Virus record (IMG/VR): IMGVR_UViG_3300003320_000969
Location: 1 to 33,822 of that record
Length of the DNA stretch: 33,822 nucleotides
Source of the DNA: a virus
Direction: 5' to 3' (one strand)
A model generated the notes under the pieces. That model was not told where the DNA came from, ran no database searches, and worked only from the letters and a program-made list of their open reading frames with translations. Of this stretch, positions 1-25,195 are shown one piece after another (the first letter of the stretch is position 1; every line of letters starts with the position of its first letter). The translations under genes and the position numbers were made by a program.

Positions 1-151
1 GATGTCAATAAGCCTTTAATTATTGACCAAGTCAGAAAAGCATTGGCAACTTCTATTCAATCTAAATATGTTTTAGAAAATATAACGCCGCTGGTTGACC
101 CAAACAATAAAATATATTCCGATCCCGTATCCGTTCGAAATGCTATTGAAG
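1..151. repeat. Left copy of an exact 151-bp terminal direct repeat, identical to 33672-33822. This is an assembly overlap of a circular or circularly permuted molecule with a unique length of 33,671 bp.
   Basis: Compared base by base. The string gatgtcaataagcctttaattattgaccaagtc... at position 1 restarts at 33672 and runs unchanged to the last base of the window. Confidence 0.95.
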
Positions 152-9482: not shown

Positions 9483-9534
9483 GCAATGACTCCTGTTTTA
9501 GTATTAAATAATGTATTTTAAGTTAATTGAAATT

Positions 9535-9563
9535 AATTTACTATATTTTACAAATTACGTCAA
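9535..9563 (-). promoter_or_regulatory. Predicted sigma70-type leftward early promoter
   Basis: On the - strand: TTGACG (+ coordinates 9563-9558), 17-nt spacer, TAAATT (9540-9535). It lies upstream of 9201..9482. Confidence 0.5.
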
Positions 9564-9582
9564 GTTTTTAATTTTAAACTGT

Positions 9583-9610
9583 TTGATCTTTGCTAAAAAA
9601 ATGCGATAAT
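9583..9610 (+). promoter_or_regulatory. Predicted sigma70-type rightward promoter for the XRE regulator and replication genes
   Basis: TTGATC (9583-9588), 16-nt spacer, GATAAT (9605-9610) preceded by TGC, which gives an extended -10-like context. The RBS CAGGAGA lies before the ATG at 9637. Confidence 0.5.
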
Positions 9611-9636
9611 GCTTAAATCTACACAGGAGAGCATAT

Positions 9637-9891
9637 ATGAGAAGATCAAAAAAACCTGTCGCTGTCGATAAAACCCCAGGGTTATTGCTGCGAAACTTAA
9701 GATTTAAAGTCGGCCTAGAACAAAAAGAATTTGCCCGAAAAATCGGGTGTTCTTCAGCATTAGTATCGAAATGGGAAACGCATAATATGAAAATAGCTAA
9801 TCCAATCCATGTAAAAAAAATAATCGATATTTTTAAAAAATATGGAATAGAATTAAAAGTTGAAGATTTAAGGCCAGATTTGACTTTATAA
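9637..9891 (+). CDS. XRE/Cro-type helix-turn-helix transcriptional regulator, 84 aa
   Basis: HTH_3-like segment LRNLRFKVGLEQKEFARKIGCSSALVSKWETHN. The gene is placed at the divergent promoter region. Confidence 0.8.
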   Translation: MRRSKKPVAVDKTPGLLLRNLRFKVGLEQKEFARKIGCSSALVSKWETHNMKIANPIHVKKIIDIFKKYGIELKVEDLRPDLTL

Positions 9892-9951
9892 TTGAAAGTC
9901 AATAAATATTATTATTAAAAATTAATTTTATTATTAAATAATGGATTGAGC

Positions 9952-10485
9952 ATGAATTCCGATGATACTATTCGACTTACGATGACCATAGAAGGTCATT
10001 GCATAAAAAATGATAATAACTTTTCATTTTTAAAACATAAAACATTATCTACCGATATCGATTTTCAATTTAACGAAGATGATTTCCATAATTTTTGTTT
10101 ACAAATGAATGAAGAAATGAATCAATATATTATTAATCTAAAGGAAGATTATTATTTAAAACATAATCATTTACTCAAAGAAAGCCAAACAATAGGGGAT
10201 AAAAATATGCGAGCATTAGCAGCCGGAGAATGGGCAAGATGGAACCAAAATTCTAATGAAAAAAAGGCGGAATGGTTTGATATAAGAGAAGAACAACCGT
10301 TGATAGATCAAAGAGTCCTTATCTGGACAAATAATAGATATTATTTTGGGCATTTAAAATGTTATGACGTTTTGTCCATTGATAATTTTGATTTTGATGG
10401 GGTTTATTTAGGATCTATTTTTTGGATGCCATTGCCGATATTTTGTCCTCCTCCTCTTAAGCCAGAACATGATATAGGTGTTTAG
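9952..10485 (+). CDS. Hypothetical protein with a DUF551-like C-terminal domain
   Basis: C-terminal pattern AEWFDIREEQPLIDQRVLIW ... IFWMPLPIF, compared with the DUF551 signature W.s..d.LP......vlv ... W.PlP. The ATG at 9952 is preferred over the TTG at 9946. Confidence 0.6.
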   Translation: MNSDDTIRLTMTIEGHCIKNDNNFSFLKHKTLSTDIDFQFNEDDFHNFCLQMNEEMNQYIINLKEDYYLKHNHLLKESQTIGDKNMRALAAGEWARWNQNSNEKKAEWFDIREEQPLIDQRVLIWTNNRYYFGHLKCYDVLSIDNFDFDGVYLGSIFWMPLPIFCPPPLKPEHDIGV

Positions 10486-10623
10486 CGTTTGCTCATTATT
10501 TTTATTGCAGATAATATTATGCAACTTTGGAGTTAATATTGGTGAGTTTTTTTGATGCATATTGTGTAATTTTAGTTATTATTATTTTCGGTCATTTTTT
10601 TTAAAATTTTGGTAGGGATTCTT

Positions 10624-11505
10624 ATGAATTTTGAATATGACTTATTATCTTTCATGTATGAAAAAAATGTAAAGATAATCGGTCATATTGACCTATCGGA
10701 TGATAGTTTCCAACGTTTTGCGTTACAAGGCAAAAATCCACATAAAAAAGATGCTTTTGTTTATATCATCGGCCAATGGGACGGCGCTATATTTGGCGAT
10801 TGGTCGCAAGGAACTTGCTATTCGTGGTGGTATAAAAATTCTATTAAAACCCCAATAGAAAGGCGTTTTATTATACAAGAAGCTAAAAAAAAACAAGAAG
10901 AACAACGGGCTATCTATGTGGAAGAAGCTAAAAAAATATATTCAGATAGTTCATTTCATATTGATCATCCTTATGTAAAAAAAAAGAATATTATTCCTTA
11001 TTTAGCTAAACAATTTAAAAATATTTTAGTTATACCTCTTCATGATTGTTTTAATTCTTTACAGTCTTTGCAATTTATTTGCCCTGATGGAACAAAAAGA
11101 TTCAAATCTGGCACTTCCCCAAACGGAAATTATTTATTATTAGGATCTCCTCTTGAAAAAAAGGTTTTTTTATGCGAGGGTTATGCCACAGGATGTAGCT
11201 TACATCAAGCATATGGACTTGCGGTTGTCTGTGCATTTTCCGCACATAATTTAATTAAAGTGGCTGCCATTATAAGGGATTTATATCCTGATTATACATT
11301 AATTATTGCTGCTGATAATGATATTTATGGGAAGGAGAATGTAGGTTTAAAAAGCGCTGAGGAAGCAGCAAAGATTTCAAAATCTCTAATTTTTTATCCG
11401 ATTTTTTCGGAAGAAGATAAAGAGATAATGGATAAACCCAAAGACTGGAATGATTTTCAGATTCTTTATGGCATTGAAGCCATTAGAAAAGAATTCATTC
11501 CCTAA
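10624..11505 (+). CDS. Toprim-domain DNA primase
   Basis: Toprim catalytic motifs are VFLCEGYATGCSLHQA (conserved Glu) and LIIAADNDIYGKENVG (DxD). I chose the ATG at 10624 (GGGA 7 nt upstream) rather than the TTG at 10609. Confidence 0.75.
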   Translation: MNFEYDLLSFMYEKNVKIIGHIDLSDDSFQRFALQGKNPHKKDAFVYIIGQWDGAIFGDWSQGTCYSWWYKNSIKTPIERRFIIQEAKKKQEEQRAIYVEEAKKIYSDSSFHIDHPYVKKKNIIPYLAKQFKNILVIPLHDCFNSLQSLQFICPDGTKRFKSGTSPNGNYLLLGSPLEKKVFLCEGYATGCSLHQAYGLAVVCAFSAHNLIKVAAIIRDLYPDYTLIIAADNDIYGKENVGLKSAEEAAKISKSLIFYPIFSEEDKEIMDKPKDWNDFQILYGIEAIRKEFIP

Positions 11506-11567
11506 GATTGTGGAAACCGCCCAGTTTTACTTTCTTAACTTTGGATTTATCCATATAGGAACACAAG

Positions 11568-13100
11568 ATGAATGATATAACAGATTTAACAAAAAATCAA
11601 AATACTGAATCAAAAAAAATCGAAAATATAGAAAAAGTTGAAATTTTTAAAAAAACCGCCGTCATTACTTCTTTTGCTGAATATAAAGAAAAAAATTCCC
11701 CGATCCCCTTAACAGAAAAAATAGAGAAAGAAAATATTTTCCCGGTGGATGATCTAGGCGATTCGCTAAAAGATTTGGTTTTAGATTTAAACCATGTTTT
11801 ACAAGCCTCTTTACCCATTTGTGCACAAAGTGTACTTTCCTCGTTAGCATTAGTCTTTCAAGCACATGCGAATGTTGCGATTAATGATTTAATTAAATTT
11901 CCGTTGTCCAATTTTTTCATAACAATTGCTGGTTCTGGCGAAAGGAAATCTACGGTGGAAAATGCTGTATTATTTCCAATTCATAAATTTCAATCAGAAG
12001 CTCGAAAACAATATACCCAGGATTTAAAAAAGTACAAGGTTGATTGTTTGGCTTATGGAAGAGATATAAAAAAAGGGCTTATTTTAAACGAACCCGAAAA
12101 ACCTATAAAACCATTGATTATTACCGAAGAACCTACTTATGAAGGATTAGTTAAAAACTTAGAAATAAACCGTGGATGCATGGGTATATTTACCGATGAA
12201 GGCGCTCGTTTTTTGAACAGTTATGCCATGACTAATGAAAACTTGACAAAGACCTTAGCTGGCCTAGCCAATATCTGGGACGGTAAAAGTATTTCACGGT
12301 TTCGAATTTCGGAAGAATCAGAGATTATTTATAATCGGCGTGTTTCCATGCATTTAATGATGCAAAAGAAAATATCAGAAAAGCTTATCTATAATGCCGC
12401 GATTGAAGACCAAGGTTTCCTTGCAAGGTGTCTCATTAGCGCGCCGCCTAAGAAATTTGGGGATTTAAAATTTATTGATAACCAGAATATTAAAAGCAAA
12501 CCATCTTATAATAAATTTGCTGACAAAATATACAGCTACATCAGCAAAGATGTACCGATTGTTTATGGCACTCGTAATGAACCCAATTTAAGGGATATCG
12601 GGCTTAATAGAGAAGCTTTTTATGTCGTTAATGATTATTTCTACAATGACCTCCAGCATCGCGTAAAAGGCGATTATGCGCCTATAGAGAAGCTTATAGC
12701 CAAGGGGATGTCTCATATTTGTCGTTTGGCGGCAATATTAGCCCTCTATGAAGATTTTAATGCACAAACCATAGAAGCTAGGCATGTTATGTCTGGGATA
12801 GGGTTGTTTAATTATTACACTGAAGAGGCGCTAAGGTTATTTTCTTATACTTTAAACAGTATTGATAACACAGATATCCAAGAAAAATTGCAGCTTGCTC
12901 AAGTCTTATCCGATTTTTTAACGGCTTACTCACGTAAAAATAATACCGATGAACTCACTTTTAGAAATATCATTCGATATTGTCCGTATAAAATCAGAAA
13001 CAAAGAGATTTTACTAGAACTATTAGATATTTTGGCAACCCATGACCATATCGAAATGCTTGCGCCAAATAAATACAAAATTAATACCTCCGTTGCTTGA
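11568..13100 (+). CDS. DUF3987-family replicative helicase-like protein, partner of the primase
   Basis: P-loop-like ITIAGSGERKSTVENAV, then IFTDEGARFLNS and NIWDGKSISRFR, which are typical of DUF3987. The gene lies immediately downstream of the Toprim primase and upstream of the iteron array. Confidence 0.7.
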   Translation: MNDITDLTKNQNTESKKIENIEKVEIFKKTAVITSFAEYKEKNSPIPLTEKIEKENIFPVDDLGDSLKDLVLDLNHVLQASLPICAQSVLSSLALVFQAHANVAINDLIKFPLSNFFITIAGSGERKSTVENAVLFPIHKFQSEARKQYTQDLKKYKVDCLAYGRDIKKGLILNEPEKPIKPLIITEEPTYEGLVKNLEINRGCMGIFTDEGARFLNSYAMTNENLTKTLAGLANIWDGKSISRFRISEESEIIYNRRVSMHLMMQKKISEKLIYNAAIEDQGFLARCLISAPPKKFGDLKFIDNQNIKSKPSYNKFADKIYSYISKDVPIVYGTRNEPNLRDIGLNREAFYVVNDYFYNDLQHRVKGDYAPIEKLIAKGMSHICRLAAILALYEDFNAQTIEARHVMSGIGLFNYYTEEALRLFSYTLNSIDNTDIQEKLQLAQVLSDFLTAYSRKNNTDELTFRNIIRYCPYKIRNKEILLELLDILATHDHIEMLAPNKYKINTSVA

Positions 13101-13101
13101 T

Positions 13102-13142
13102 AAAGGGTGGCGCCCAAAATCACATGTTGGGCGCCACCCTTT
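13102..13142. terminator. Strong bidirectional terminator hairpin
   Basis: AAAGGGTGGCGCCCAA (13102-13117) pairs perfectly with TTGGGCGCCACCCTTT (13127-13142) across a 9-nt loop. It lies between converging genes. Confidence 0.8.
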
Positions 13143-13171
13143 GGTTAATTATTTATATATTTCAATAAAAA

Positions 13172-13435
13172 TTATAAATTTTTCAATTTATCTATGATTT
13201 CAAGCAAATTAGATTCAGCAGTAGAATGATGATGCACAAAAAATTTTCTAATCATGTCTAAAACAGAAAATTGCTCTGCTTGACTCCATTTATAAGATTT
13301 TTTAACCATATTTTTAACGCCATCATCAGCTAAATCTTCAAGTGATATAACGCCAAAATTATCCATAATATCGCTAGCAATCCTGTAGGGTGCTCGACAA
13401 TCCACACTTGATCCGTAAACATTTAACAAAATCAT
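13172..13435 (-). CDS. Hypothetical protein, 87 aa, adjacent to the iteron array
   Basis: The ORF starts at the ATG at 13435. The same frame stays open upstream to about 13555, into the first iterons, but I found no ATG/GTG/TTG there. Confidence 0.45.
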   Translation of the reverse strand: MILLNVYGSSVDCRAPYRIASDIMDNFGVISLEDLADDGVKNMVKKSYKWSQAEQFSVLDMIRKFFVHHHSTAESNLLEIIDKLKNL

Positions 13436-13532
13436 CCATTCATTTTCGCTAAGAGTTGGAAGAGAAGATTGGGAAAGCCATTTTAATTTTTCAAATGCGT
13501 TATTTATTTCGTGTATTTTTATTTTAAGAAGA

Positions 13533-13938
13533 GTGTCGCAATAAGTGTCGCAAACCTATTAAAAACATAAGTTATTGATTTTAAAGGTGTCGCAACTCAA
13601 TTTAGGCGATTTTGTCGCAGGATTTTTGTCGCAGGACGTACAGAGTATGTGAAAACGTATATTTTTGGTTTAAATTATAACCATTTAGTATAATTTATAA
13701 ACAAATTGCATAATAAATGTGCGTCGCTAAATTTCAGCGACAACTCTGCGACTTGTTGCGACAATTGCGACGCTTAGTGTAATAATAATATACAAATATA
13801 TATAATAATAGTATATATATTATACATATTGTATATTTATTATACAACTATTATCATATAGAAAGGATAGGGTAGCAATCATTGCGACAAATTTACGTGT
13901 CGCGCAATGTCGCAATAGGTGTCGCACGAAGTGTCGCA
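13533..13938. repeat. Iteron array of about 15 copies of core GTCGCA / TGCGAC, often extended to GTGTCGCA. Putative replication origin or partition/operator array.
   Basis: Forward copies end at 13540, 13552, 13594, 13619, 13633, 13914, 13926 and 13938, with variants at 13722-13727 and 13899-13903. Reverse copies are at 13747-13752, 13757-13763, 13766-13771 and 13883-13889, with a variant at 13737-13741. The spacing is irregular and the region is non-coding. Confidence 0.8.
13781..13860. other. About 80 bp of almost pure A+T between the iteron clusters, a candidate DNA-unwinding element
   Basis: Sequence is aataataatatacaaatatatataataatagtatatatattatacatattgtatatttattatacaactattatcatata, containing repeated ATTATACA and TATATA motifs. 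Confidence 0.55.
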
Positions 13939-14071
13939 ATGCTGTCTATGCGTATTGTTTTTAAAATGTACAATTTATATTTGGTGGGTTATGTATAATT
14001 TTTTTACTTTTGGATTACAATATTGGATTTTGAAATTCGTTACATGGACATGAAATTTACAAGGATTATGT

Positions 14072-14215
14072 ATGGATTTATCGACTTGGGTTTTGGCTAT
14101 CCCATTTTTCCTTTTGATCATTCCTGCTGGAATTATATTGTTTGCGGTTTTCTATCATGGATGGAAACTAATCCGCGCCGTTTATCGAGAGATTATGGCT
14201 GTTATTAGACTTTAG
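14072..14215 (+). CDS. Candidate small membrane protein, 47 aa with a single TM (holin-like candidate). This is an alternative frame to track ORF 14023..14208.
   Basis: Hand translation gives MDLSTWVLAIPFFLLIIPAGIILFAVFYHGWKLIRAVYREIMAVIRL, with TAG at 13 nt past 14202 (14213-14215). This looks far more protein-like than the Cys/Trp/Tyr-rich product of the track frame. No clear RBS. Confidence 0.3.
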   Translation: MDLSTWVLAIPFFLLIIPAGIILFAVFYHGWKLIRAVYREIMAVIRL

Positions 14216-14395
14216 CGACTAATTAATTTAACTGCGCAATTAAAATACAATGTATTAAATGAACACTATTAATAAATTAAATATATTAATAAACTATTTT
14301 TAATAGATATTGTATTTAATCAATAAAATTCCCTAACTTGTTTATCAACCTTTTTATATCTTGTATAATTCGCCTTTTTAGCAAAAGGATTTGCA

Positions 14396-14773
14396 ATGTC
14401 GAACGTTATTATGACCGCGCAAGAATATCTTGCTGGTTTGAAAGAAGATCAAGAGCAAGCAACCTTCGTTCAATTCCTGGAACAAAAGGGGGAGCTATTT
14501 TACCATGTTCCTAATGGTGGATTTAGACATCCTCGTGAAGGCGTTAAACTTAAGAAACAAGGCGTCAAAGCGGGAGTTCCCGATATATGCATATGCGCCA
14601 TGAGAAAAGGCTTTGGTGGCCTTTATATTGAGTTTAAAAGGCGTAAAAAATCCATTGTTTCTGAAAGGCAAAAAGAATGGATTGAAAACTTGCGTCAAGC
14701 AGGTTATAAAGCAGAAATTGCAGCAGGGTATGATGAAGCGGTTAAAATATATACAAGCTATATTCAAGATTAA
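14396..14773 (+). CDS. VRR-NUC domain nuclease
   Basis: Signature HVPNGG ... GVPDICICAMRKGFGGLYIEFKRRKKSIVSERQKEWIENLRQAGYKAEIAAGYDEAVKIY, showing the PD-(D/E)xK-type D...E.K pattern of VRR-NUC. AAAGGA RBS upstream. Confidence 0.8.
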   Translation: MSNVIMTAQEYLAGLKEDQEQATFVQFLEQKGELFYHVPNGGFRHPREGVKLKKQGVKAGVPDICICAMRKGFGGLYIEFKRRKKSIVSERQKEWIENLRQAGYKAEIAAGYDEAVKIYTSYIQD

Positions 14774-14798
14774 TAAGAATAATAAGAAGAGAAGAAAA

Positions 14799-15362
14799 AT
14801 GAGCTATTTTGACGAAGTAATAAAGACTGTTTTAAAGAATGAAGGTGGCTATGTTAATAACCCGGTCGATAGTGGCGGACCCACAAACTATGGCATATGC
14901 TGGAAAACCGTTTGCAGTTTAGATCCGGAAAAATTATCCTTGTATGGATTTAATACACCACTTACTTTTAAAGTTATTGAAAACATGACTGAAACCCAAG
15001 CAAAAGCCTTTTATAAGGGCGAATTTTGGGATAAGGCGCAATTTTCTAATATATTAAATCCATCTATATGTGCGGCCATATTTGATATGTCGGTTAATGC
15101 GGGTATATTAGAAGCGATTAAATGTGTACAAAGGGCATCTAATGCTGTCCATGGAGATTTAATTCTTAAAGAAGATGGGATCTTAGGAGTTAAAACTTTA
15201 GTTGAAATTAATCTCAATGGCCAATCCATGGATAATCATGGTAATGCGCTCTTATCAGCATTTAGATCTGAAAGAGCAGGTTTTTATCGATATTTATGCG
15301 CCAAGCATTCAGCATATAAAATATTCTTAGAAGGTTGGATAAATAGAGCTTATAAAACGTGA
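14799..15362 (+). CDS. Endolysin of the GH108 N-acetylmuramidase type with a C-terminal peptidoglycan-binding region
   Basis: The N-terminal signature LKNEGGYVNNPVDSGGPTNYGI is the GH108 hallmark. I chose the start at ATG 14799 (MSYFDEV...). The 62-aa upstream extension in the track overlaps the VRR-NUC gene. Confidence 0.8.
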   Translation: MSYFDEVIKTVLKNEGGYVNNPVDSGGPTNYGICWKTVCSLDPEKLSLYGFNTPLTFKVIENMTETQAKAFYKGEFWDKAQFSNILNPSICAAIFDMSVNAGILEAIKCVQRASNAVHGDLILKEDGILGVKTLVEINLNGQSMDNHGNALLSAFRSERAGFYRYLCAKHSAYKIFLEGWINRAYKT

Positions 15363-15385
15363 ATATAAAATTATTTTTAAAACTA

Positions 15386-15413
15386 TTGACTTAAGACTTT
15401 AATATTTTACAAT
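15386..15413 (+). promoter_or_regulatory. Near-consensus sigma70-type promoter downstream of the endolysin gene
   Basis: TTGACT (15386-15391), 16-nt spacer, TACAAT (15408-15413). Confidence 0.45.
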
Positions 15414-15415
15414 GA

Positions 15416-15520
15416 ATGCTGGTGTTACCCTTTGCAAGATCCCACTATTTAATGCCAGTACTATTTATTGTGATGATAACTATTGCTGGCATTAAATTAT
15501 TCTTCTTCATTAACGCTTAA
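15416..15520 (+). CDS. Candidate 34-aa hydrophobic peptide, or alternatively a small RNA, lying between the promoter and the terminator
   Basis: Hand translation gives MLVLPFARSHYLMPVLFIVMITIAGIKLFFFINA. No obvious RBS. The same region contains an 11-bp inverted repeat, TTTAATGCCAG (15448-15458) / CTGGCATTAAA (15486-15496). Confidence 0.25.
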   Translation: MLVLPFARSHYLMPVLFIVMITIAGIKLFFFINA

Positions 15521-15533
15521 ATTTATGTCTAGC

Positions 15534-15565
15534 CCCAAATCAATTTTTGATTGGGACGTTTTTTT
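15534..15565 (+). terminator. Rho-independent terminator on the + strand
   Basis: CCCAA(A)TCAA / TTGATTGGG hairpin (15534-15555) with one bulge, followed by ACG and a run of 7 T (15559-15565). Confidence 0.6.
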
Positions 15566-15572
15566 AACTTTT

Positions 15573-16025
15573 TTATTCTAAAAAATCTGGACGATAACAC
15601 CAGTGAGTGATTTTTGCCGTTTCTTCATACTCTTTTAATTCAGCGGGCAAAATCCATTTCCATTTTTCCGGGCTATATATTGCTGTAGAATAAAAATCTG
15701 TGCCTTCGTCATATCTTTCATCGACACATCTTACAATTACCCATTCAGAGTAAGTCCCTGGCAAATAGTCTTTAACACTGATCCATTTTGAAATTTTTGT
15801 CATGTATGCAATTTCTTTACCAGTTCTTTCATAAACAACTTCTTCAATGTTATCTATTTTTTCATTGAGTTTTTCTTCAAGGTCGCCTAGACATCCCATA
15901 AAACCATTTCCTTCGTCCATGTCAGCCTTGAATTGTTTAACCTTAATTTCTAAATCTAATCTGGCAACAGCTCCTTCTAACTTCGCAACACGCTTTGCTA
16001 AATTATTAAAATCTTCATCAATCAT
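15573..16025 (-). CDS. Protein with an N-terminal coiled coil and a DUF551-like C-terminal domain, 150 aa
   Basis: ISKWISVKDYLPGTYSEWVIV ... ITHWCYRPDF matches the DUF551 pattern. It is the last gene of the long leftward accessory operon. Confidence 0.65.
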   Translation of the reverse strand: MIDEDFNNLAKRVAKLEGAVARLDLEIKVKQFKADMDEGNGFMGCLGDLEEKLNEKIDNIEEVVYERTGKEIAYMTKISKWISVKDYLPGTYSEWVIVRCVDERYDEGTDFYSTAIYSPEKWKWILPAELKEYEETAKITHWCYRPDFLE

Positions 16026-16076: not shown

Positions 16077-16367
16077 CTAATCAAAATAATGTTGATCGGA
16101 AATATAAGGCAGCATTCCTTTAGCAACACTGGATAGTGTATCGACACATAAAAAATACTTTTTATCTCCGGGGTATGCTTCATTTTCGACGTTTTTTAAA
16201 AAATGATAGGTTGCCGCAGCGACAAGATTTGAAATAGTAAGATTTGTCATAGAAAACAAATTTCCTATCGGGATTTCTTTGTTTTCATCCCAATACTTTT
16301 TTATTTCATTTGATAATATACGGCATAACTCATCCGCCTTTTTTGTCAGTTCTTCGTCACTCAGCAT
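16077..16367 (-). CDS. Small hypothetical protein, paralog family member 1, 96 aa
   Basis: By eye roughly half of the residues are identical to 16405..16695. Shared blocks are YWDENKEIP, ISNL, YHFL.N.E.E.YPGD.KYF.CVD and VAK.MLP. Confidence 0.7.
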   Translation of the reverse strand: MLSDEELTKKADELCRILSNEIKKYWDENKEIPIGNLFSMTNLTISNLVAAATYHFLKNVENEAYPGDKKYFLCVDTLSSVAKGMLPYISDQHYFD

Positions 16368-16404
16368 TTTATATACTCCTTTTACCTACAATAAATTTCG
16401 TGTT

Positions 16405-16695
16405 CTATGTTTTTAAATTACCGGAAATATAAAATGGTAACATGTCTTTAGCAACTCTGCACATATCATCCACACATGCGAAATACTTGTTATCTCCCGG
16501 ATAGTCTTCATGTTCGGCATTTTCTAAAAAATGATAGATTATCGTCGCGATAAGATTTGAAATAGCGACGTGGATAATAGGAAAATAATCTTCCAGAGGT
16601 ATTTCTTTGTTTTCATCCCAGTAATTGTGTATTTCTTTTAATAGTATGCGGAATAACTCAGATGTCTTTTCCCCATATTTTTTTTTACTCATCAT
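16405..16695 (-). CDS. Small hypothetical protein, paralog family member 2, 96 aa
   Basis: Tandem duplicate of 16077..16367 (see shared blocks there). Similarity is also visible at the nucleotide level, for example aaaaaatgatag and agatttgaaatag. Confidence 0.7.
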   Translation of the reverse strand: MMSKKKYGEKTSELFRILLKEIHNYWDENKEIPLEDYFPIIHVAISNLIATIIYHFLENAEHEDYPGDNKYFACVDDMCRVAKDMLPFYISGNLKT

Positions 16696-17282: not shown

Positions 17283-17552
17283 TTAGTTTTCAGAAATAAT
17301 AATTTCCAGTTGACTTTTAGTAAGCTTGCATATTTTATCAACCAAAGCAAAATGATTTTCAGTGAATTTCGGTGTTTTTTTAAAGCAATTATAGATTAAT
17401 TCAGCAGTAAATATTGAAATAGCGGTGCTGATTATCAAGTACACCTGTAATATATGCATTTCTTGGTTTTTATCCATAAACTTTTTTGATTCCTCTGTTA
17501 GAACCCTATGGAAATCAATAGCTTTATCTATCATTTTTTCTTCATCAATCAT
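17283..17552 (-). CDS. Small hypothetical protein, a distant third member of the 16077/16405 paralog family, 89 aa
   Basis: It has the same length class and layout. AIDFHRVLTEESKKFMDKNQEM...ISTAISIFTAELIYNCFKK...HFALVDKICKLTK aligns with ELCRILSNEIKKYWDENKEI...TISNLVAAATYHFLKN...YFLCVDTLSSVAK. Confidence 0.55.
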   Translation of the reverse strand: MIDEEKMIDKAIDFHRVLTEESKKFMDKNQEMHILQVYLIISTAISIFTAELIYNCFKKTPKFTENHFALVDKICKLTKSQLEIIISEN

Positions 17553-17815: not shown

Positions 17816-18097
17816 CTATAATGAATCTAAAGAGTCTAAAGAGTCTAAAGGTTCATCGGAAAATAACCCATCATTGCATGCTAATTTACTCATATTTTCT
17901 TCCCTTAATTTAACAAATTCTTTGTATTCAATATTAGACATTTTTTCAAGAATTTTTGTTGTTTCTGACTCAATACAATCAAATATAAAATCAGAAACTT
18001 CGGCAGCATTGTTATTAAATAGAGCTAATAAAGCTTGGTATGAGCCATCATTAATAGTAACTACCAACTGGTTGGTTTCAGTTGTAATGTTTATCAT
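17816..18097 (-). CDS. Acidic hypothetical protein, 93 aa, ending in three LDS repeats
   Basis: The ORF overlaps the upstream stop by 4 nt. The C-terminus PLDSLDSLDSL is encoded by the 9-bp tandem repeat. Confidence 0.55.
   Translation of the reverse strand: MINITTETNQLVVTINDGSYQALLALFNNNAAEVSDFIFDCIESETTKILEKMSNIEYKEFVKLREENMSKLACNDGLFSDEPLDSLDSLDSL
17823..17849. repeat. Three tandem copies of a 9-bp unit (gaatctaaa gagtctaaa gagtctaaa)
   Basis: Read directly. It lies within the 3' end of 17816..18097. Confidence 0.9.
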
Positions 18098-18384
18098 AGA
18101 CCATCTTCTTTTTTGATTATGACGTTTAGTAGATCTTGAAAATCAGCTTTTTGAGCATAAAGAATAATCAAGCTCAGTACTTTACTACAATTGAGCTTAA
18201 TTTCATAATTCTTATTAAGATATTCTGTCAAATTGTTTAAATAAATACTGATGTCTTCTTGAAGCGAAAAGCATCTGTTAACGCTTTTTTTGTGTATTAA
18301 CCCAAGTTTTTTCTTGATACCGTCTTCTTTTTGTGTAGGGATATTTTTTATAGACATTTGTTCAGCGTTGGTTAGTTTAGACAT
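18094..18384 (-). CDS. Putative partition adaptor / centromere-binding protein, the small partner of ParA (type Ib-like), 96 aa
   Basis: The call rests on position only. The start overlaps the parA stop by 13 nt, the protein is small and basic (KKKLGLIHKKSVNR), and no ParB HTH motif was recognised. Confidence 0.4.
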   Translation of the reverse strand: MSKLTNAEQMSIKNIPTQKEDGIKKKLGLIHKKSVNRCFSLQEDISIYLNNLTEYLNKNYEIKLNCSKVLSLIILYAQKADFQDLLNVIIKKEDGL

Positions 18385-19142
18385 AATATTTCCTCCGTTA
18401 GGCTAAATAAATCATTTGTTCCTTTACAGCTTTTATTGTACTTATAAACAGGCATATTCCTTATCTTAGCTTGATTAATATGTTCATCTTGACGAATAAT
18501 TGTTTCTAAGACATGACCTTCCTTGTATAAATCATTTAGATTGTTTTCTATATACTCATTGGTTATAGATTTTCGAATATCTTTTTTGTTTCTTACAATT
18601 TTAAATATGTACTTATCAAACTCTTTCACTTCATTAATAACATGAAATAAATCGCTTATACCCTGGATAGAATCTTTTTCATAAGTAACCGGTATTAAAA
18701 TAATATCCGCACAATAAATAGCATTTATGGTTAATTCACCAAGTGTTGGGCAACAATCAATTACGCAATAATCTAAAGGCTCCTCTATCTTAGATAAAAT
18801 ATTGTACAAGTAAGTTTCTCTTTTTATTGCATTAGCTAGATGCCTTTGTGCCATCGCTAAATGAATATCAGCGGGTATTAGCATCAAATTATTTCCAATA
18901 TGGAATATGGCGTTTTTTATCATATGGGTAACTGTTTTCGATCTAGCCATTTGAAGCACGCTGCTCATAAATAATTGCGAAGGTTCAAATTCATGGACTA
19001 AGCCATGGCTCGCATTTGCACTGGGGTCAAAGTCTATTAAAAGTGTTCGTTTGCTTTTCCACGACAGAAAATAGGCCAAATTATAAGCAATCGATGTTTT
19101 TCCTACGCCGCCTTTTTGATTAATAACCGCTATTTTTTTCAT
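18372..19142 (-). CDS. parA: ParA/Soj-family partition ATPase, 256 aa
   Basis: The deviant Walker A is MKKIAVINQKGGVGKTSIAYNLA. Other motifs are LLIDFDPSANAS and YCVIDCCPTLG (Walker B region). Confidence 0.85.
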   Translation of the reverse strand: MKKIAVINQKGGVGKTSIAYNLAYFLSWKSKRTLLIDFDPSANASHGLVHEFEPSQLFMSSVLQMARSKTVTHMIKNAIFHIGNNLMLIPADIHLAMAQRHLANAIKRETYLYNILSKIEEPLDYCVIDCCPTLGELTINAIYCADIILIPVTYEKDSIQGISDLFHVINEVKEFDKYIFKIVRNKKDIRKSITNEYIENNLNDLYKEGHVLETIIRQDEHINQAKIRNMPVYKYNKSCKGTNDLFSLTEEILCLN

Positions 19143-19144
19143 GA

Positions 19145-19576
19145 TTAATGCACCACAGGATTATTAGGCAAAACATATTTGTTAACAAAAACTTCGCTAA
19201 GCGTTATTATTAACGATATGATGTCTTCTGCAGACATTTCATGTGTGTTAACTGTTTTCACTAAATTTTTCTGAGTACGCTTTTTTCTTTTAATGTTAAT
19301 AAATTCTTCCAACATCTTTATTTTTTCTTTTTTTATACAGGTTTCATCTTCTAACGTTACATTCTTAATGCCGTATTTTTTGATTTTTATATTTATAATT
19401 GTTGCCGCTGTTATCATTTCATAAATATTATCTTGAAACGAAGAAAATATATTACATAAATCAATTTCCGCCATGCACAAATTTCTTTTTAGGTCAAAGA
19501 ATTGATGTATTTTTTTCATGGTTTCTTCGTATTGTTGCTGCATATCGGCTTCAATATCTGGTTCAATCTTTTGCAT
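19145..19576 (-). CDS. Hypothetical protein, 143 aa, first gene of the parA operon
   Basis: The ORF ends 2 nt before the parA start. No motif recognised. Confidence 0.55.
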   Translation of the reverse strand: MQKIEPDIEADMQQQYEETMKKIHQFFDLKRNLCMAEIDLCNIFSSFQDNIYEMITAATIINIKIKKYGIKNVTLEDETCIKKEKIKMLEEFINIKRKKRTQKNLVKTVNTHEMSAEDIISLIITLSEVFVNKYVLPNNPVVH

Positions 19577-19674
19577 ATTTAACCCTTGATTTATAGAAAG
19601 GCTATATAATAATATTAATTTATATTATTTTGCAATAATATTTATTATTTTTTATTAAAAAATATTATTTTATA

Positions 19675-19703
19675 TTGACATTTATAGAAGAACAGCTAAT
19701 AAT
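19675..19703 (+). promoter_or_regulatory. Predicted sigma70-type promoter for the Zn-ribbon / terS / relBE unit
   Basis: TTGACA (19675-19680), 17-nt spacer, AATAAT (19698-19703). An AAAGGA RBS precedes the ATG at 19736. Confidence 0.5.
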
Positions 19704-19735: not shown

Positions 19736-19954
19736 ATGACAGAAGTTATTGTTTGTCCTTCTTGCAGAGGGCAAAAAGTTATTTTAGGGCTTGGAATGAT
19801 GGAGCAAGATTGTATAAAATGCGATGGAATAGGATATTGTGAAATAGAAAAGAAACCGAATAAAGCATCCCCGTTTCATTCAATGAATAATCCAGAAGAA
19901 GAATTGCATATTAAAAGACGCGGGCGTCCAAAAAGAATAAAAAACAATGATTAA
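19736..19954 (+). CDS. Small zinc-ribbon protein with an AT-hook-like basic tail, 72 aa
   Basis: CPSCRGQKV ... CIKCDGIGYC is a DnaJ-type CxxCxGxG pair. The tail KRRGRPKRIK has a GRP AT-hook core. Confidence 0.65.
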   Translation: MTEVIVCPSCRGQKVILGLGMMEQDCIKCDGIGYCEIEKKPNKASPFHSMNNPEEELHIKRRGRPKRIKNND

Positions 19955-20408
19955 AAAGAATTTAGATACCGCTTTAGACATCTTAGACAAGATCCCAGAA
20001 ACATCTCGGCCCATAAAAAAAAGGCACCATGTTTTTTGTGCAGTGTATGCGAGAAGCGGGGATGGTTTAGAAGCGATGAGGGAAGCTGGTTATCCACAGA
20101 CCAGTATTACTTTCCCCAATTTAGCAAGGCTATTAAATAAAAATTATATCCAAGAAGAAGTTGCCAAGCACCGTGAACGGCTTTCAAAGCTTAATACGTT
20201 AACCTATGAATATAAATTGTCAAAACTAGCCGATGGTATTGATTATTATTGTGATAAAAAAGAGTACATATTCGCTGCCAAATTAATAGAAATAGCTAAC
20301 AAAATGCAAGGCCATAATGCGCCTGATAAGCACTTAAATGTTAATGCAGCAGTCAGCTTTGACAAGATTAAGAAAAAATTAGAAGAATTAGAATATAAAG
20401 AATACTGA
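19947..20408 (+). CDS. terS: Terminase small subunit (Terminase_2-like)
   Basis: HVFCAVYARSGDGLEAMREAGYPQTS ... ARLLNKNYIQEEV matches the pattern F...Y...gn...A...AGY.....a.....LL.n..v. The size is 153 aa. Confidence 0.65.
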   Translation: MIKKNLDTALDILDKIPETSRPIKKRHHVFCAVYARSGDGLEAMREAGYPQTSITFPNLARLLNKNYIQEEVAKHRERLSKLNTLTYEYKLSKLADGIDYYCDKKEYIFAAKLIEIANKMQGHNAPDKHLNVNAAVSFDKIKKKLEELEYKEY

Positions 20409-20452: not shown

Positions 20453-20677
20453 ATGGTTATAAATATGATATCAATTAGATTGCCTTCTGAAATTGAAGAA
20501 AGGCTAAATAATCTCGCAAAGAAAACCGGCCGTACAAAGACTTTTTATGTAAAAGAAGCCGTCGTCAATCATTTAGAAGACTTAGAGGATATCTATGACG
20601 CTTTAGAAAGGCTTTCTAAGCCAGAAAAGTTATGGACGTTACAAGAAATAAGCAGAAGTATTAATGTGGCAGATTAA
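20453..20677 (+). CDS. relB: RelB/ParD-type ribbon-helix-helix antitoxin
   Basis: ISIRLPSEIEERLNNLAKKTGRTKTFYVKEAV is a typical RHH N-terminus. The gene overlaps the toxin gene by 14 nt. The start could alternatively be the ATG at 20465. Confidence 0.8.
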   Translation: MVINMISIRLPSEIEERLNNLAKKTGRTKTFYVKEAVVNHLEDLEDIYDALERLSKPEKLWTLQEISRSINVAD

Positions 20678-20927
20678 TTGGACTGACTCAGCTAAAAAAG
20701 ATTTTAAGAAGTTAGATTCTAAGCTTCAAAAAGATATAATAAAATATTTAAAAGATCGCATTGTCAAAAGTGATGACCCGCGCCAATTTGGAAAACCGTT
20801 ATCCTATGATAAATATGGGTTATGGTGCTATCGGGTGCAAAAAGCTAGAATTATTTGTTGTATTGAAGATGATGCGCTTATTGTTATTGTTGTTAAAGTT
20901 GGGTATAGGAAAGATGTCGATATATAA
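20664..20927 (+). CDS. relE: RelE/ParE-superfamily toxin
   Basis: WQINWTDSAKKDFKKLDSKLQKDIIKYL ... GLWCYRVQKARIICCIEDDALIVIVVKVGYRKDV matches the family pattern. The size is 87 aa. Confidence 0.8.
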   Translation: MWQINWTDSAKKDFKKLDSKLQKDIIKYLKDRIVKSDDPRQFGKPLSYDKYGLWCYRVQKARIICCIEDDALIVIVVKVGYRKDVDI

Positions 20928-23677: not shown

Positions 23678-25195
23678 TCAAAATGATCGGTTTTGCTTTA
23701 TGTTTTGTAGCCTTATAAAATTTCCCATGATTGTTTTGGCGACTTCATTGTTATAAGATTTTTTACTTCGATTATAGTTGATCGCTAATTTATCTATAAT
23801 ACCACATCTGATCCCATCGTACATTGTATCTGCGATATCATCATGGCGATGTGAATTATTAGCGGTGATGGATTTACAATGATTAATGCACATGGTTGTA
23901 TGTTTGCCATATGTGGGTAAAGATACCAGCCCTTCGCTCACAATATGCTGTATTTCTAAAAATCGGTCAGTTTTACTTTGGATACTTCTTTCGATATCAA
24001 TGATAGTAATCCCTTGCATCTTTTTAAGGACGCTGGATAAAGTTACGCCAGTGCTTTTCTTTTCAATTGCAGCCAACACGGGAGGGCATCGATGACGCAT
24101 AGCCCTGGCATAGAAAGCTAGAAATTCACCTTCTAAATCTTTAGGCTCAATCCAAGTTTGTATACAATCTATCCAATGAATAGCATATTTTTCAATATCA
24201 ATGTCTCGATATTTTATTTTGTAAACGCCAAAATGGCTAAATACTGTGGGGTCATTATACGTTTTGGCTGTTTCGGCAGTATCGACGGTAATAAAAGAAG
24301 TCAGTATTTCTGGTTCTTCGTCATGTAATACAAACCATTCAGGTTTAAAGACACCGCCGCCTGCCGGAAGTGGATCTTGTTGGTGTTGTGCTGCAAAGAC
24401 ATAAGGATGTAGCCTTTTCATTTCTAGCAATTGTTCTCTTGAATGCATGTTGGGATTTAGTGCATTTTCATTTTCATCAAGAGAGGAGAGGGATAATATT
24501 TTCCATCCACCTTCTTTAATTAGGTTTGCCGCCAAGTCATCTTCATGTAATCGTTGTCCAATGAAAATAATCGGCGTTTTACTTGGTGAATTAAGTCGTG
24601 ATAATAAAGTATGGTAATACCATTCGTTAACAGCGGATCTGACAGTGTCAGAATGCACTTCGGTGGGTTTATGTATATCATCAATAATAATAGCACCACC
24701 AAAGCGGTCGCAATTTTGTATTCCCGCTCCACGTCCTGTTATTTCTCCTTCTGCGCCTGCAGCATAAACAGTGCCGCCTTTTGTTGTTTCAAAGTTATGC
24801 TGGGCCGAGGTGTCTTCCGATATTTCCACTTTAAACACATCTTTATATTCAGGCATATTAATAATTTGACGTATGGTTTTTGTTTGTTTTTTAGCCAAAC
24901 CCAATGAATAAGAGACATATAAAAAATTAGAGTCCGGGTATTGGGAAAGCGCCCAGGCAATAAAATGAATTAGTAATTCTGTTTTACCATATCTGGGTGC
25001 GATATTGATGATTAACCGATTGGTTTCTCCTTTAAAGACTTTCATCAATTCTCGGCAAATCGTAATATAATGTGATTCTCGCCCATCTGGATAGCTTAGC
25101 TTAAATTCTCGTCCTGTGCGTAGCTCATAAAATATTCGAGTAAATGTTAGCAAAGATCCCCATAAGTCTTCGGGAATTTTTTTTATACCCTGCAT
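23678..25195 (-). CDS. terL: Terminase large subunit
   Basis: ATPase motifs are INIAPRYGKTELLIHF (Walker A-like), GGAIIIDDIHKP (Walker B) and IFIGQRLHEDDL. The nuclease-domain motif is FITVDTAETAKTYNDPTVF. Confidence 0.85.
   Translation of the reverse strand: MQGIKKIPEDLWGSLLTFTRIFYELRTGREFKLSYPDGRESHYITICRELMKVFKGETNRLIINIAPRYGKTELLIHFIAWALSQYPDSNFLYVSYSLGLAKKQTKTIRQIINMPEYKDVFKVEISEDTSAQHNFETTKGGTVYAAGAEGEITGRGAGIQNCDRFGGAIIIDDIHKPTEVHSDTVRSAVNEWYYHTLLSRLNSPSKTPIIFIGQRLHEDDLAANLIKEGGWKILSLSSLDENENALNPNMHSREQLLEMKRLHPYVFAAQHQQDPLPAGGGVFKPEWFVLHDEEPEILTSFITVDTAETAKTYNDPTVFSHFGVYKIKYRDIDIEKYAIHWIDCIQTWIEPKDLEGEFLAFYARAMRHRCPPVLAAIEKKSTGVTLSSVLKKMQGITIIDIERSIQSKTDRFLEIQHIVSEGLVSLPTYGKHTTMCINHCKSITANNSHRHDDIADTMYDGIRCGIIDKLAINYNRSKKSYNNEVAKTIMGNFIRLQNIKQNRSF

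What the first reader, a model, noticed from the sequence alone, without database searches (positions are those of the whole stretch)
13533..13938. Bipartite iteron array (about 15 GTCGCA/TGCGAC cores) flanking an 80-bp A+T block: putative origin
A non-coding region of about 960 bp (13436-14395) contains the iterons in three groups:
- Five forward copies of (G)TGTCGCA at 13533-13633, including the tandem TTTGTCGCAGGA / TTTTTGTCGCAGGA.
- A central group of mostly reverse copies at 13721-13771, including the hyphenated palindrome GCGTCGCTAAATTTCAGCGAC.
- A right-hand group, after about 80 bp of nearly pure A+T with ATTATACA repeats, with one reverse and four forward copies at 13883-13938.

This is the classic iteron-plus-DNA-unwinding-element layout of plasmid and phage origins. 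It lies directly downstream of the primase and DUF3987 genes. The two clusters separated by a spacer recall the ori/crr organisation of satellite phage P4, where the primase-helicase binds repeated octamers. The motif is not one I recognise from a described origin. The binding protein is unknown; candidates are the C-terminal region of the DUF3987 protein, the adjacent 87-aa protein, the XRE protein, or the ParA partner.
Basis: seen in the sequence. Interest (0 to 1): 0.65.

Follow-up and report, generated by a model that had tools for sequence, protein, structure and literature searches.

The report
Iteron replication origin beside helicase gene
Fifteen copies of a short repeat surround an A+T-rich block just downstream of a phage's primase and MCM-like helicase genes; this is most likely the phage's replication origin, and the same kind of repeat array sits next to related helicase genes in many other mobile elements.

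Summary
Twelve of the window's 21 GTCGCA copies, plus three GTCGC[T/G] variants, lie in 13535-13938 (about 0.1 expected). They form three groups around a 91% A+T block at 13780-13860.

The window is a complete circular phage-like genome (151-bp terminal repeat). It carries ParA and a ParE toxin, and no integrase was found.

The origin reading is supported by comparison:
- In 36 DUF3987-helicase loci fetched without regard to any DNA motif, 27 carry a same-strand repeat triplet within 700 bp downstream of the gene. Control regions give 3-4.
- In 23 of the 36 the core is N-T-[C/A]-G-C, the window's type. The usual layout is reverse copies followed by forward copies, as in the window's central and right groups.
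- Two relatives are 96% identical in the helicase body but 63% in the C-terminal winged helix. Their iterons differ by one base in every copy (GTAGCA versus GTCGCA).
- The window protein models as an MCM-like ATPase with a C-terminal winged helix.

The layout works like the SaPI/PICI pri-rep-ori replicon rather than P4 ori/crr. It is a new member of a known kind. The family-wide iteron core appears to be undescribed. No experiment supports any of this yet.

The parts
10609..11505 (+). Toprim-type DNA primase gene (298 aa), first gene of the replication module
   Evidence: Pfam Toprim_3, E 3.8e-8. PHROG 2249 'DNA primase', E 3e-50.
11568..13100 (+). DUF3987 (MCM-like, SF6) helicase gene (510 aa), the proposed initiator-helicase
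   Evidence: Pfam DUF3987, E 8.8e-65. PHROG 2373 'DNA helicase'. AF2 model with pLDDT 88.8. Best Foldseek matches are MCM2-7 and archaeal MCM subunits, E 7e-6 to 1e-3. The family is described as an SF6 helicase with a C-terminal wHTH (PMC4889955), and helicase activity was shown for a PriCT-DUF3987 protein (PMC11724360).
12870..13097 (+). C-terminal winged-helix domain of the helicase (residues 435-510), the proposed iteron reader
   Evidence: In the AF2 model the elements are H435-458, strand 462-464, H465-471, H479-491 and strands 495-499 and 502-505. The domain aligns across the family. In the related pair L244/L245 this domain diverges together with the iteron.
13102..13142 (.). G+C-rich hairpin (19-nt arms, 95% complementary) ending the primase-helicase operon, probably a bidirectional terminator
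   Evidence: Inverted repeat I7. It lies between the helicase stop and the stop of the convergent 87-aa ORF.
13533..13633 (+). Left iteron group: five forward copies of (G/T)TGTCGCA; proposed accessory set
   Evidence: The first two copies abut the truncated 5' end of the 87-aa gene remnant.
13721..13771 (-). Central iteron group: one forward (degenerate) and four reverse copies spaced 11, 10 and 9 bp; proposed left arm of the core origin, pointing away from the A+T block
   Evidence: The same 'reverse copies first, then forward copies' polarity relative to the helicase gene is seen in L245, L268, L223, L263, L269, L275 and L261.
13772..13882 (.). A+T-rich block (82% A+T; core 13780-13860 is 91%); proposed DNA-unwinding element
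   Evidence: ATTATACA occurs twice. No ORF of 25 aa or more that looks real.
13883..13938 (+). Right iteron group: one reverse and four forward copies spaced 10, 12 and 12 bp; proposed right arm of the core origin
   Evidence: (family D2).

Best explanation
This is the replication origin of a circular phage, probably a phage-plasmid, of the 'self-loading helicase' type.

Proposed mechanism:
1. The DUF3987 protein (11568-13100) is an MCM-like hexameric helicase. Its C-terminal winged helix reads the iteron (G/T)TGTCGCAA.
2. The central group (mostly reverse copies, 13737-13771) and the right group (mostly forward copies, 13899-13938) point away from each other. They flank the 91% A+T block at 13780-13860.
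3. Two helicase assemblies are therefore positioned in opposite orientation on either side of the block and melt it.
4. The adjacent Toprim primase (10609-11505) lays the first primers.
5. The left group (13533-13633) is an accessory set, for example for cooperative loading or for copy-number and incompatibility control.

Shown here: the repeat cluster and its layout; the MCM-like fold and winged helix in a model; the family-wide linkage of N-T-[C/A]-G-C-A arrays to DUF3987 genes; and the joint change of iteron and winged helix in one closely related pair.

Inferred: binding of the iterons by the winged helix, melting at the A+T block, loading of two hexamers, and the role of the left group.
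For: 1. Non-random cluster: 12 of 21 GTCGCA copies in 406 bp against about 0.1 expected.

2. Position downstream of a primase plus DUF3987 helicase operon.

3. Motif-independent sample of 36 DUF3987 loci from viral contigs. A same-strand 5-mer triplet spaced 7-12 bp occurs within 700 bp downstream of the gene in 27 of 36. The controls give 4 of 36 inside the gene, 3 of 30 upstream and 3 of 34 further downstream. In 23 of 36 the core fits N-T-[A/C]-G-C. Thirteen of these 36 loci exceed all 200 Markov resamplings.

4. Five of the 36 use exactly GTCGCA: L245, L248, L250, L268 and L274.

5. An independent motif-first search found GTCGCA arrays immediately downstream of DUF3987 genes in L037, L099, L122 (Qipengyuania) and L223; in L106 a GTCGCA triplet lies about 400 bp downstream of the gene, beyond arrays of GTAGCA. 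A P. putida 19-kb plasmid carries five TGTCGCC copies in the same position.

6. The polarity 'reverse copies then forward copies' relative to the gene is shared.

7. L244 and L245: the proteins are 95.9% identical over residues 1-393 but 62.9% over the last 62 residues. Every aligned iteron is GTAGCA in one and GTCGCA in the other.

8. AF2 plus Foldseek give an MCM-like fold with a C-terminal winged helix, as reported for the family (PMC4889955). A DUF3987 protein is an active helicase that binds its primase (PMC11724360).

9. DUF3987 and the primase are the only ORF family shared between the window and the other array-bearing loci.

10. The layout matches experimentally defined SaPI and PICI origins: 5-6-nt iterons downstream of rep, read by a C-terminal winged helix, in two sets in opposite orientation flanking an A+T-rich region (PMC9371898, PMC6092414).

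11. ParA, a ParE toxin and no integrase suggest plasmid-like maintenance, which needs such an origin.
Against: - There are no experimental data of any kind.
- The array starts 430 bp after the helicase stop, beyond a terminator hairpin and a convergent gene remnant. In most relatives it starts within about 100 bp.
- Spacing in the window is 9-14 bp, whereas 9 bp dominates in relatives (91 of 141 close spacings).
- Nine of the 36 relatives show no downstream triplet. E. coli K-12 yfjI and Legionella pLPP yfjI have no array.
- TGTCGCA arrays also occur next to unrelated primase-helicases (VapE, D5-like, AAA_25) and next to a TerS gene. Those helicases have no detectable homologue of the DUF3987 winged helix, so the motif is not exclusive to this family.
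- Cumulative GC skew shows no switch here.
- The A+T block is only the third most A+T-rich 80-bp stretch of the genome.
- No simple residue-to-base rule could be read from the winged-helix alignment.
Confidence: 0.75

Rival explanations
1. It is an origin, but the iterons are read by a protein other than the DUF3987 winged helix. Candidates are the Toprim primase, the 179-aa protein upstream of it (9946-10485), or a host factor.
For: TGTCGCA arrays also lie downstream of primase-helicases from other families (L055 VapE, L071 D5-like, L005 AAA_25). Their C-termini show no similarity to the DUF3987 winged helix. The window primase is related to the primase part of L055 (E 1e-19) and L223. From my own knowledge, GTGTC is a T7-type primase recognition sequence.
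Against: The L244/L245 divergence is concentrated in the helicase C-terminus and coincides with the iteron change. Primases in array-bearing loci are of different kinds or not adjacent. The 179-aa protein has no homologue in the other loci. The non-DUF3987 cases were found by searching 2.9 million contigs for this exact motif, so they may be chance convergence.
Confidence: 0.1
2. It is a partition centromere: the two-part repeat array is bound by the 96-aa partner of ParA (18094-18384), as in parC of R1 or pB171.
For: The element encodes ParA and a small downstream partner. Centromeres of small-ParB systems are also arrays of short repeats in two clusters (own knowledge). No strong repeat array was found next to the par genes.
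Against: The array is 4.4 kb from parA, while such centromeres normally adjoin the par operon. No GTCGCA copy lies near parA. The A+T-rich imperfect repeats and palindromes at 19603-19685, upstream of the par operon, are a better-placed candidate. The same iteron type follows DUF3987 genes across loci that share no other gene with the window.
Confidence: 0.06
3. It is an operator array: a transcription factor such as the XRE protein binds the repeats to control divergent promoters for the 87-aa gene and the rightward lysis and nuclease genes.
For: The array lies between oppositely oriented genes. A few sigma-70-like hexamer pairs fall inside it.
Against: Promoter-like hits do not exceed chance: 9 found against 10.7 +/- 3.1 expected. 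Fifteen sites over 400 bp is far more than typical operators. The XRE gene has its own divergent intergenic region at about 9483-9636. The leftward gene is a truncated remnant. The family-wide linkage is to the helicase gene.
Confidence: 0.05
4. It is a packaging (pac) site read by the small terminase, like the two-part hexamer array of P1 pac.
For: In one group of viral contigs (L075, L020, L087, L067) a TGTCGCA array lies beside a Terminase_2-like gene.
Against: In the window the TerS-like gene (19947-20408) is 6 kb away. Those contigs are short fragments whose replication genes are not visible. The systematic linkage is to DUF3987.
Confidence: 0.03

Closest known systems
SaPI / PICI pri-rep-ori replicons (SaPIbov1, SaPI1, SaPI5, EcCICFT073)
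   Same: A primase gene is followed by a helicase-initiator gene and then the origin. The iterons are short (5-8 nt) and are read by a C-terminal winged helix of the helicase. There are 6-12 or more iterons in two sets of opposite orientation flanking an A+T-rich region, and the helicase loads itself. SaPI Reps come from SF3 or SF6 (MCM-like) helicases yet share this origin layout (PMC9371898, PMC6092414).
   Different: The element here is a full-size phage genome with its own terminase, portal, head and tail genes, and no integrase was found. It is not a satellite island. The array starts 430 bp from the helicase gene rather than immediately after it. There is a third, all-forward iteron group. 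The iteron sequence differs. Whether SaPIbov1 Rep belongs to Pfam DUF3987 could not be checked.
Satellite phage P4 ori / crr with the alpha primase-helicase
   Same: A phage-encoded primase-helicase recognises repeated octamers through a C-terminal DNA-binding domain, and there is more than one cluster of sites (own knowledge; P4 alpha and crr are mentioned in PMC6092414).
   Different: P4 alpha is a single fused primase plus SF3-type helicase, whereas here there are two genes and an MCM-like DUF3987 helicase. From my own knowledge, the P4 octamer is TGTTCACC and ori and crr lie kilobases apart. Here the clusters are 90-250 bp apart around one A+T block.
Iteron plasmids and the P1 prophage replicon (RepA/Rep_3-type initiators)
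   Same: Repeated initiator-binding sites lie next to an A+T-rich unwinding element. Extra iteron groups could act in copy-number control.
   Different: No RepA/Rep_3-type initiator gene was detected in the ORFs scanned. The iterons have an 8-9-bp core at 9-14-bp spacing in mixed orientation, not 17-22-bp direct repeats at about 22-bp phasing (own knowledge). There is no DnaA box in the region. The proposed initiator is the helicase itself.
Archaeal/eukaryotic MCM loading at origins
   Same: The helicase has an MCM-like fold and a C-terminal winged helix. Two opposed assemblies are proposed around the melting site.
   Different: No ORC/Cdc6-like loader is present. Sequence recognition would be by the helicase's own winged helix. 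A DUF3987 helicase was reported to unwind 5' to 3' (PMC11724360), unlike MCM.

Membership tests
SaPI/PICI-type pri-rep-ori replicon | Primase gene followed by a helicase-initiator gene on the same strand | tested here: met
   Toprim primase at 10609-11505 and DUF3987 helicase at 11568-13100, both on the + strand.
SaPI/PICI-type pri-rep-ori replicon | Short iterons located immediately downstream of rep | tested here: inconclusive
   The iterons are downstream and are the next non-coding feature, but they start 433 bp after the stop codon, beyond a hairpin and a truncated convergent ORF. In relatives they start 20-100 bp after the stop.
SaPI/PICI-type pri-rep-ori replicon | Two iteron sets in opposite orientation flanking an A+T-rich region | tested here: met
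   Four reverse copies at 13737-13771 and four forward copies at 13899-13938 flank 13772-13882, which is 82% A+T with a 91% core.
SaPI/PICI-type pri-rep-ori replicon | C-terminal winged-helix domain on the helicase | tested here: met
   AF2 model, residues 435-505, with helix-strand-helix-helix-strand-strand order. The literature reports this for DUF3987 (PMC4889955).
SaPI/PICI-type pri-rep-ori replicon | Rep binds its own iterons and the rep-ori segment replicates autonomously | not testable with these tools
   Only indirect support exists: the iteron and the winged helix change together in L244/L245.
SaPI/PICI satellite island (the element as a whole) | Integrated island with an integrase and master repressor, dependent on helper-phage virion genes | tested here: not met
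   The genome encodes its own TerS, TerL, portal, major head, head-closure and tail-fibre proteins. No integrase was found in the ORFs scanned. The assembly is circular.
P4 ori/crr | Fused primase-helicase alpha protein of the P4/D5 (SF3) type | tested here: not met
   Primase and helicase are separate genes. The helicase is DUF3987 and its best structural matches are MCM proteins.
P4 ori/crr | TGTTCACC octamer iterons in two elements several kilobases apart | tested here: not met
   The iteron is (G/T)TGTCGCAA and all groups lie within 406 bp. The P4 values are from my own knowledge.
RepA-type iteron plasmid origin | Rep_3/RepA-family initiator gene adjacent to 17-22-bp direct iterons, with DnaA boxes | tested here: not met
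   No such family appeared in the Pfam or PHROG scans of neighbouring genes. The iterons are short and in mixed orientation. No DnaA box with one mismatch or fewer lies in 13436-14395.
Partition centromere of a small-ParB (type Ib-like) system | Repeat array adjoining the parA operon and bound by the small ParA partner | tested here: not met
   The nearest GTCGCA copy to parA (18372-19142) is the array itself, 4.4 kb away. Binding is not testable.
DUF3987-linked iteron arrays (class defined here) | Array of N-T-[C/A]-G-C-A cores downstream of a DUF3987 gene, with reverse copies followed by forward copies relative to the gene | tested here: met
   The window shows core GTCGCA and a central reverse group followed by a right forward group. 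The class is seen in 23-27 of 36 motif-independent loci. The window's spacing of 9-14 bp is looser than the usual 9 bp.

The most novel reading that the evidence does not exclude
DUF3987 (MCM-like) helicases of phages, plasmids and islands may share one origin-recognition scheme. Their C-terminal winged helix would read 9-bp-spaced iterons with the core N-T-[C/A]-G-C-A, arranged as opposed triplets (three plus three sites, matching the six winged helices of a hexamer). Specificity would be re-tuned by changes confined to the last 60 or so residues. If so, origins of thousands of uncharacterised mobile elements could be predicted from sequence. These elements would also offer a simple bacterial model of sequence-specific, loader-free MCM-type helicase loading. 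The window would be an A+T-rich, loosely spaced member with an unusually large unwinding block.
Probability: 0.5. Interest if true: 0.65.

Novelty: new member of a known kind. Interest (0 to 1): 0.5.

Why it matters
For this genome, it locates the probable origin and names the probable initiator. That makes a minimal replicon (10609-14075) directly testable for an uncultured, apparently phage-plasmid-like virus with no close relatives.

More broadly, DUF3987 helicases are widespread in phages, plasmids and genomic islands. Their helicase activity has been shown, but none of the 13 papers found that mention DUF3987 appears to describe an origin for them. The recurring N-T-[C/A]-G-C-A arrays, and the natural specificity switch between L244 and L245, give a concrete and cheap experimental handle on how an MCM-like helicase can find and load at an origin without a separate loader.

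Tried and rejected
- DNA similarity of 9500-16000 to GenBank phages and PLSDB plasmids gave no match.
- Close relatives of the helicase in the genome and viral collections: none. The best protein homologue is 34% identical, so conservation in close relatives could not be examined. Distant relatives were used instead.
- Cumulative GC skew has no turning point at 13.5-14 kb and follows gene orientation, so it is uninformative.
- The promoter and terminator scan gave nothing above chance.
- Rfam families and tRNAs: none.
- DnaA boxes: none in the region.
- Repeats near parA: only A+T-rich imperfect repeats at 19603-19685 and no GTCGCA.
- The 87-aa protein as iteron binder is rejected. It is a 5'-truncated remnant of a 140-150-aa family with no link to DUF3987 loci.
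- Looked for a shared C-terminal DNA-binding domain among the DUF3987, VapE, D5-like and AAA_25 helicases that all sit next to TGTCGCA arrays. BLAST and a winged-helix HMM found nothing. Those cases are treated as convergence or ascertainment.
- Looked for a simple residue-to-base code in the winged-helix alignment. None was evident.
- E. coli K-12 CP4-57 yfjI and Legionella pLPP yfjI have no downstream array.
- The SaPI origin papers (PMC3804134, PMC1964853) are not held. Their content is cited through PMC9371898.
- Arrays in L065, L039 and L016 are coding repeats and were discarded.
- The idea that GTGTC acts as a T7-type primase recognition site was not pursued.

Full report
**1. What is in the sequence**

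The region was read directly. GTCGCA occurs 21 times on both strands of the 33,822-base window. Dinucleotide-preserving shuffles give 6.9 +/- 2.8, with a maximum of 15. Twelve of the 21 copies lie between 13535 and 13938.

The 7-mer TGTCGCA occurs 11 times, ten of them here. Adding the variants GTCGCT (13723, 13737) and GTCGCG (13899) gives 15 GTCGC cores in 406 bp, out of 39 in the window. From the density outside the stretch, about 0.11 GTCGCA copies would be expected in 406 bp.

The window has an exact 151-bp direct terminal repeat.

The oriented copies give the consensus (G/T)TGTCGCAA.
- Left: five forward copies at 13535-13633.
- Central: one forward and four reverse copies at 13723-13771.
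- Right: one reverse and four forward copies at 13884-13938.

Between the central and right groups, 13780-13860 is 91% A+T.

Two small corrections apply. The stretch 13436 to about 13530 is the decayed 5' part of the neighbouring gene. And 14072-14215 is a plausible 47-aa membrane-protein ORF.

**2. Context**

The genome is phage-like. It encodes:
- a small terminase-like protein (19947-20408), large terminase (23678-25195), portal (21489-23630), major head protein, head-closure protein and tail fibres;
- a GH108 endolysin and a VRR-NUC nuclease to the right of the array;
- a Sak4-like annealing protein;
- ParA (18372-19142) with a 96-aa downstream partner, and a ParE-family toxin (20664-20927).

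No integrase was found in the ORFs scanned. This makes it a candidate phage-plasmid.

Immediately to the left of the array lie a Toprim primase (10609-11505), a DUF3987 protein (11568-13100) and a G+C-rich hairpin (13102-13142).

Neither the DNA nor the helicase has close relatives in the collections. In PLSDB the distant helicase homologues are mostly on Legionella plasmids (25 of 40 records). This fits the window's low G+C content.

**3. Is the array linked to the helicase gene elsewhere?**

Two independent routes were used.

*Motif first.* Viral contigs were scanned for two adjacent iterons, and 185,579 genomes for three. This returned many loci with dense arrays in mixed orientation.

A DUF3987 profile then found a DUF3987 gene whose 3' end directly abuts the array in L037, L099, L122 (Qipengyuania) and L223 (a Toprim-DUF3987 fusion). 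In L106 a GTCGCA triplet lies about 400 bp downstream of the gene, beyond arrays of GTAGCA. These sequences have 57-65% G+C, and where compared (L037, L099) their proteins are about 28% identical to the window's.

*Gene first.* An alignment of DUF3987 proteins was used to fetch 36 loci from viral contigs without reference to any DNA motif. A neutral detector looked for any 5-mer present three times on one strand at 7-12-bp spacing. Results:

| Region tested | Loci with a triplet |
|---|---|
| 700 bp downstream of the gene | 27 of 36 |
| Inside the gene | 4 of 36 |
| Upstream | 3 of 30 |
| 1.5-2.2 kb downstream | 3 of 34 |

In 23 of the 36 the repeated core fits N-T-[A/C]-G-C. Five loci use exactly GTCGCA: L245, L248, L250, L268 and L274. 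The others use ATCGCA, TTCGCA, GTAGCA, TTAGCA, CTAGCA, ATAGCA, TTAGCC or GGCGCA.

Thirteen of these 36 loci have a top 6-mer count never reached in 200 Markov resamplings.

Copies are mostly 9 bp apart (91 of 141 close spacings). They typically form a block of reverse copies followed by one or two blocks of forward copies, relative to the helicase gene. The window's central and right groups have this same polarity. Its spacing is looser, at 9-14 bp.

A 19-kb P. putida plasmid carries five TGTCGCC copies directly after its yfjI-family gene.

The linkage is not universal. Nine of the 36 loci show no downstream triplet, and neither E. coli K-12 yfjI nor Legionella pLPP yfjI has an array.

**4. 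Who reads the iterons?**

The AlphaFold2 model of the window protein is confident (pLDDT 88.8). It ends in a winged helix at residues 435-505. Its best matches among solved structures are MCM2-7 and archaeal MCM subunits.

This agrees with published work. [quoted passage not shown] A PriCT-DUF3987 protein has been shown to be an oligomeric, ATP-dependent helicase that binds its primase (PMC11724360).

The C-terminal domain aligns across all the loci.

The most telling case is the pair L244 and L245. Their helicases are 95.9% identical over residues 1-393 but only 62.9% over the last 62 residues. Their downstream arrays align copy for copy, yet read GTAGCA in one and GTCGCA in the other.

In an all-against-all comparison of ORFs, the DUF3987-plus-primase cluster is the only family the window shares with the other array-bearing loci.

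- The 87-aa protein is a 5'-truncated remnant. Its homologues are 140-150 aa long. The in-frame homology continues about 25 codons upstream of its ATG and then runs into the first two iterons and two stop codons.
- Neither the XRE protein nor the ParA partner has any comparative link to the arrays.

**5. Mechanism**

The layout matches the experimentally defined SaPI and PICI replicons. In those, pri and rep are followed by ori. The Rep helicase may be SF3 or SF6, depending on the island. It carries a C-terminal winged helix that recognises 5-6-nt iterons. Six to twelve iterons lie downstream of rep, half on each side of a central A+T-rich region, with copies in opposite orientation on the two sides. 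Rep loads itself, probably as two hexamers, and melts the origin without ATP (PMC9371898). [quoted passage not shown]

By analogy, I propose the following. The DUF3987 helicase binds the central and right iteron groups through its winged helix. Two opposed assemblies melt the block at 13780-13860. The Toprim primase then starts synthesis. The left group would be accessory.

The fold, the layout and the linkage are shown here. Binding, melting and the role of the left group are inferred.

**6. Rival explanations**

*Centromere for ParA and its partner.* This is disfavoured. The array is 4.4 kb from parA, no GTCGCA lies near the par genes, and an A+T-rich repeat and palindrome region sits upstream of the par operon.

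*Operator array.* This is disfavoured. Promoter-like sites do not exceed chance, and the leftward gene is a remnant.

*Pac site.* This is suggested only by a group of short contigs where a TGTCGCA array adjoins a TerS-like gene. In the window the TerS-like gene is 6 kb away.

*Another reader protein.* This remains the most serious open point. TGTCGCA arrays also occur downstream of VapE-, D5- and AAA_25-type primase-helicases that lack any detectable homologue of the DUF3987 winged helix. Those cases came from a search of millions of contigs for this exact motif, so I regard them as probable convergence. They do leave room for a different reader, such as the primase.

**7. Comparison with known systems and novelty**

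It works like a SaPI/PICI origin, but the element is not a satellite island. It is not a P4-type ori/crr: the helicase family, iteron and geometry all differ. It is not a RepA-type iteron origin: there is no such initiator, the repeats are short and in mixed orientation, and there are no DnaA boxes.

The window's array is therefore a new member of a known kind of origin.

What appears to be undescribed is the family-wide iteron core and opposed-triplet layout linked to DUF3987 genes. A full-text search found 13 papers mentioning DUF3987. I searched the text of three of them, and none of those describes an origin for it. A search for the motif together with 'iteron' found nothing.

**8. Verdict**

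- Observation: confirmed.
- Origin interpretation: supported by comparative evidence, confidence about 0.75.
- Closest analogue: SaPI/PICI pri-rep-ori.
- Interest: moderate. It would be higher if the family-wide recognition scheme holds up experimentally.

Noticed in passing
window 1-151 and 33672-33822: There is an exact 151-bp direct terminal repeat. The contig is a complete circular (or terminally redundant) genome of about 33,671 bp.
   Followed up: partly
window 13172-13530 (- strand): The 87-aa ORF is a 5'-truncated remnant of a 140-150-aa protein family of unknown function. Homology continues in frame about 25 codons upstream of its ATG, then runs into the first two iterons and two stop codons with no start codon between. 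The left edge of the iteron array therefore looks like a recombination junction. One homologue (L277) sits beside a parA-like gene.
   Followed up: partly
window 14072-14215 (+): A 47-aa ORF with a single hydrophobic span (MDLSTWVLAIPFFLLIIPAGIILFAVFYHGWKLIRAVYREIMAVIRL) follows an AAGGA ribosome-binding site. It lies between the array and the VRR-NUC and endolysin genes and may be a small membrane or holin-like protein.
   Followed up: no
window 18094-19576 and 20453-20927: The genome carries ParA (256 aa) with a 96-aa downstream partner and a 143-aa upstream ORF, and a ParE-family toxin preceded by a 74-aa ORF. No integrase was found. These are plasmid-maintenance features in a genome that has a full virion module, which suggests a phage-plasmid lifestyle.
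   Followed up: partly
window 19566-19690: This is the most A+T-rich stretch of the genome (4 G/C in 80 bp). It has imperfect 33-nt direct repeats and palindromes upstream of the par operon and is a candidate par operator or centromere.
   Followed up: no
window 16077-16695 and 17283-17552 (- strand): Two adjacent 96-aa ORFs are clear paralogues (...WDENKEIP...YPGD.KYF.CVD...), and an 89-aa ORF has a similar pattern. This is a small tandem gene family of unknown function.
   Followed up: no
L244 4001-5650 and L245 4001-5650: These are two near-identical elements. Their DUF3987 helicases differ mainly in the last 62 residues (63% versus 96% identity elsewhere). Their downstream iterons are GTAGCA and GTCGCA at every aligned copy, which looks like a natural specificity switch.
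   Followed up: yes
L252, L254, L262, L248, L274 (first 600 bp downstream of the DUF3987 gene): In several high-G+C relatives, two iteron clusters bracket a conserved stretch of about 400 bp that reads as a small protein-coding gene on the same strand as the helicase. The origin appears to be split around a gene of unknown function.
   Followed up: no
L055 1181-1576; L071 5348-5652; L005 3537-3691: TGTCGCA(C) arrays in mixed orientation also lie directly downstream of primase-helicases of other families (Zn-ribbon-Toprim-VapE; BT4734_N plus D5-like; Toprim-AAA_25). No detectable homologue of the DUF3987 winged helix is present. Whether this is convergence or a shared reader is unexplained.
   Followed up: partly
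L106, first 480 bp downstream of the DUF3987 gene: One locus carries several GTAGCA triplets followed by a separate GTCGCA triplet. Two iteron specificities therefore sit beside one helicase gene.
   Followed up: no
L280 4930-5020 (P. putida plasmid NZ_CP043577): A 19-kb non-mobilisable plasmid with no typed replicon has five TGTCGCC copies directly after its yfjI-family (DUF3987) gene, inside an annotated hypothetical ORF. The helicase may be this plasmid's replication protein.
   Followed up: no
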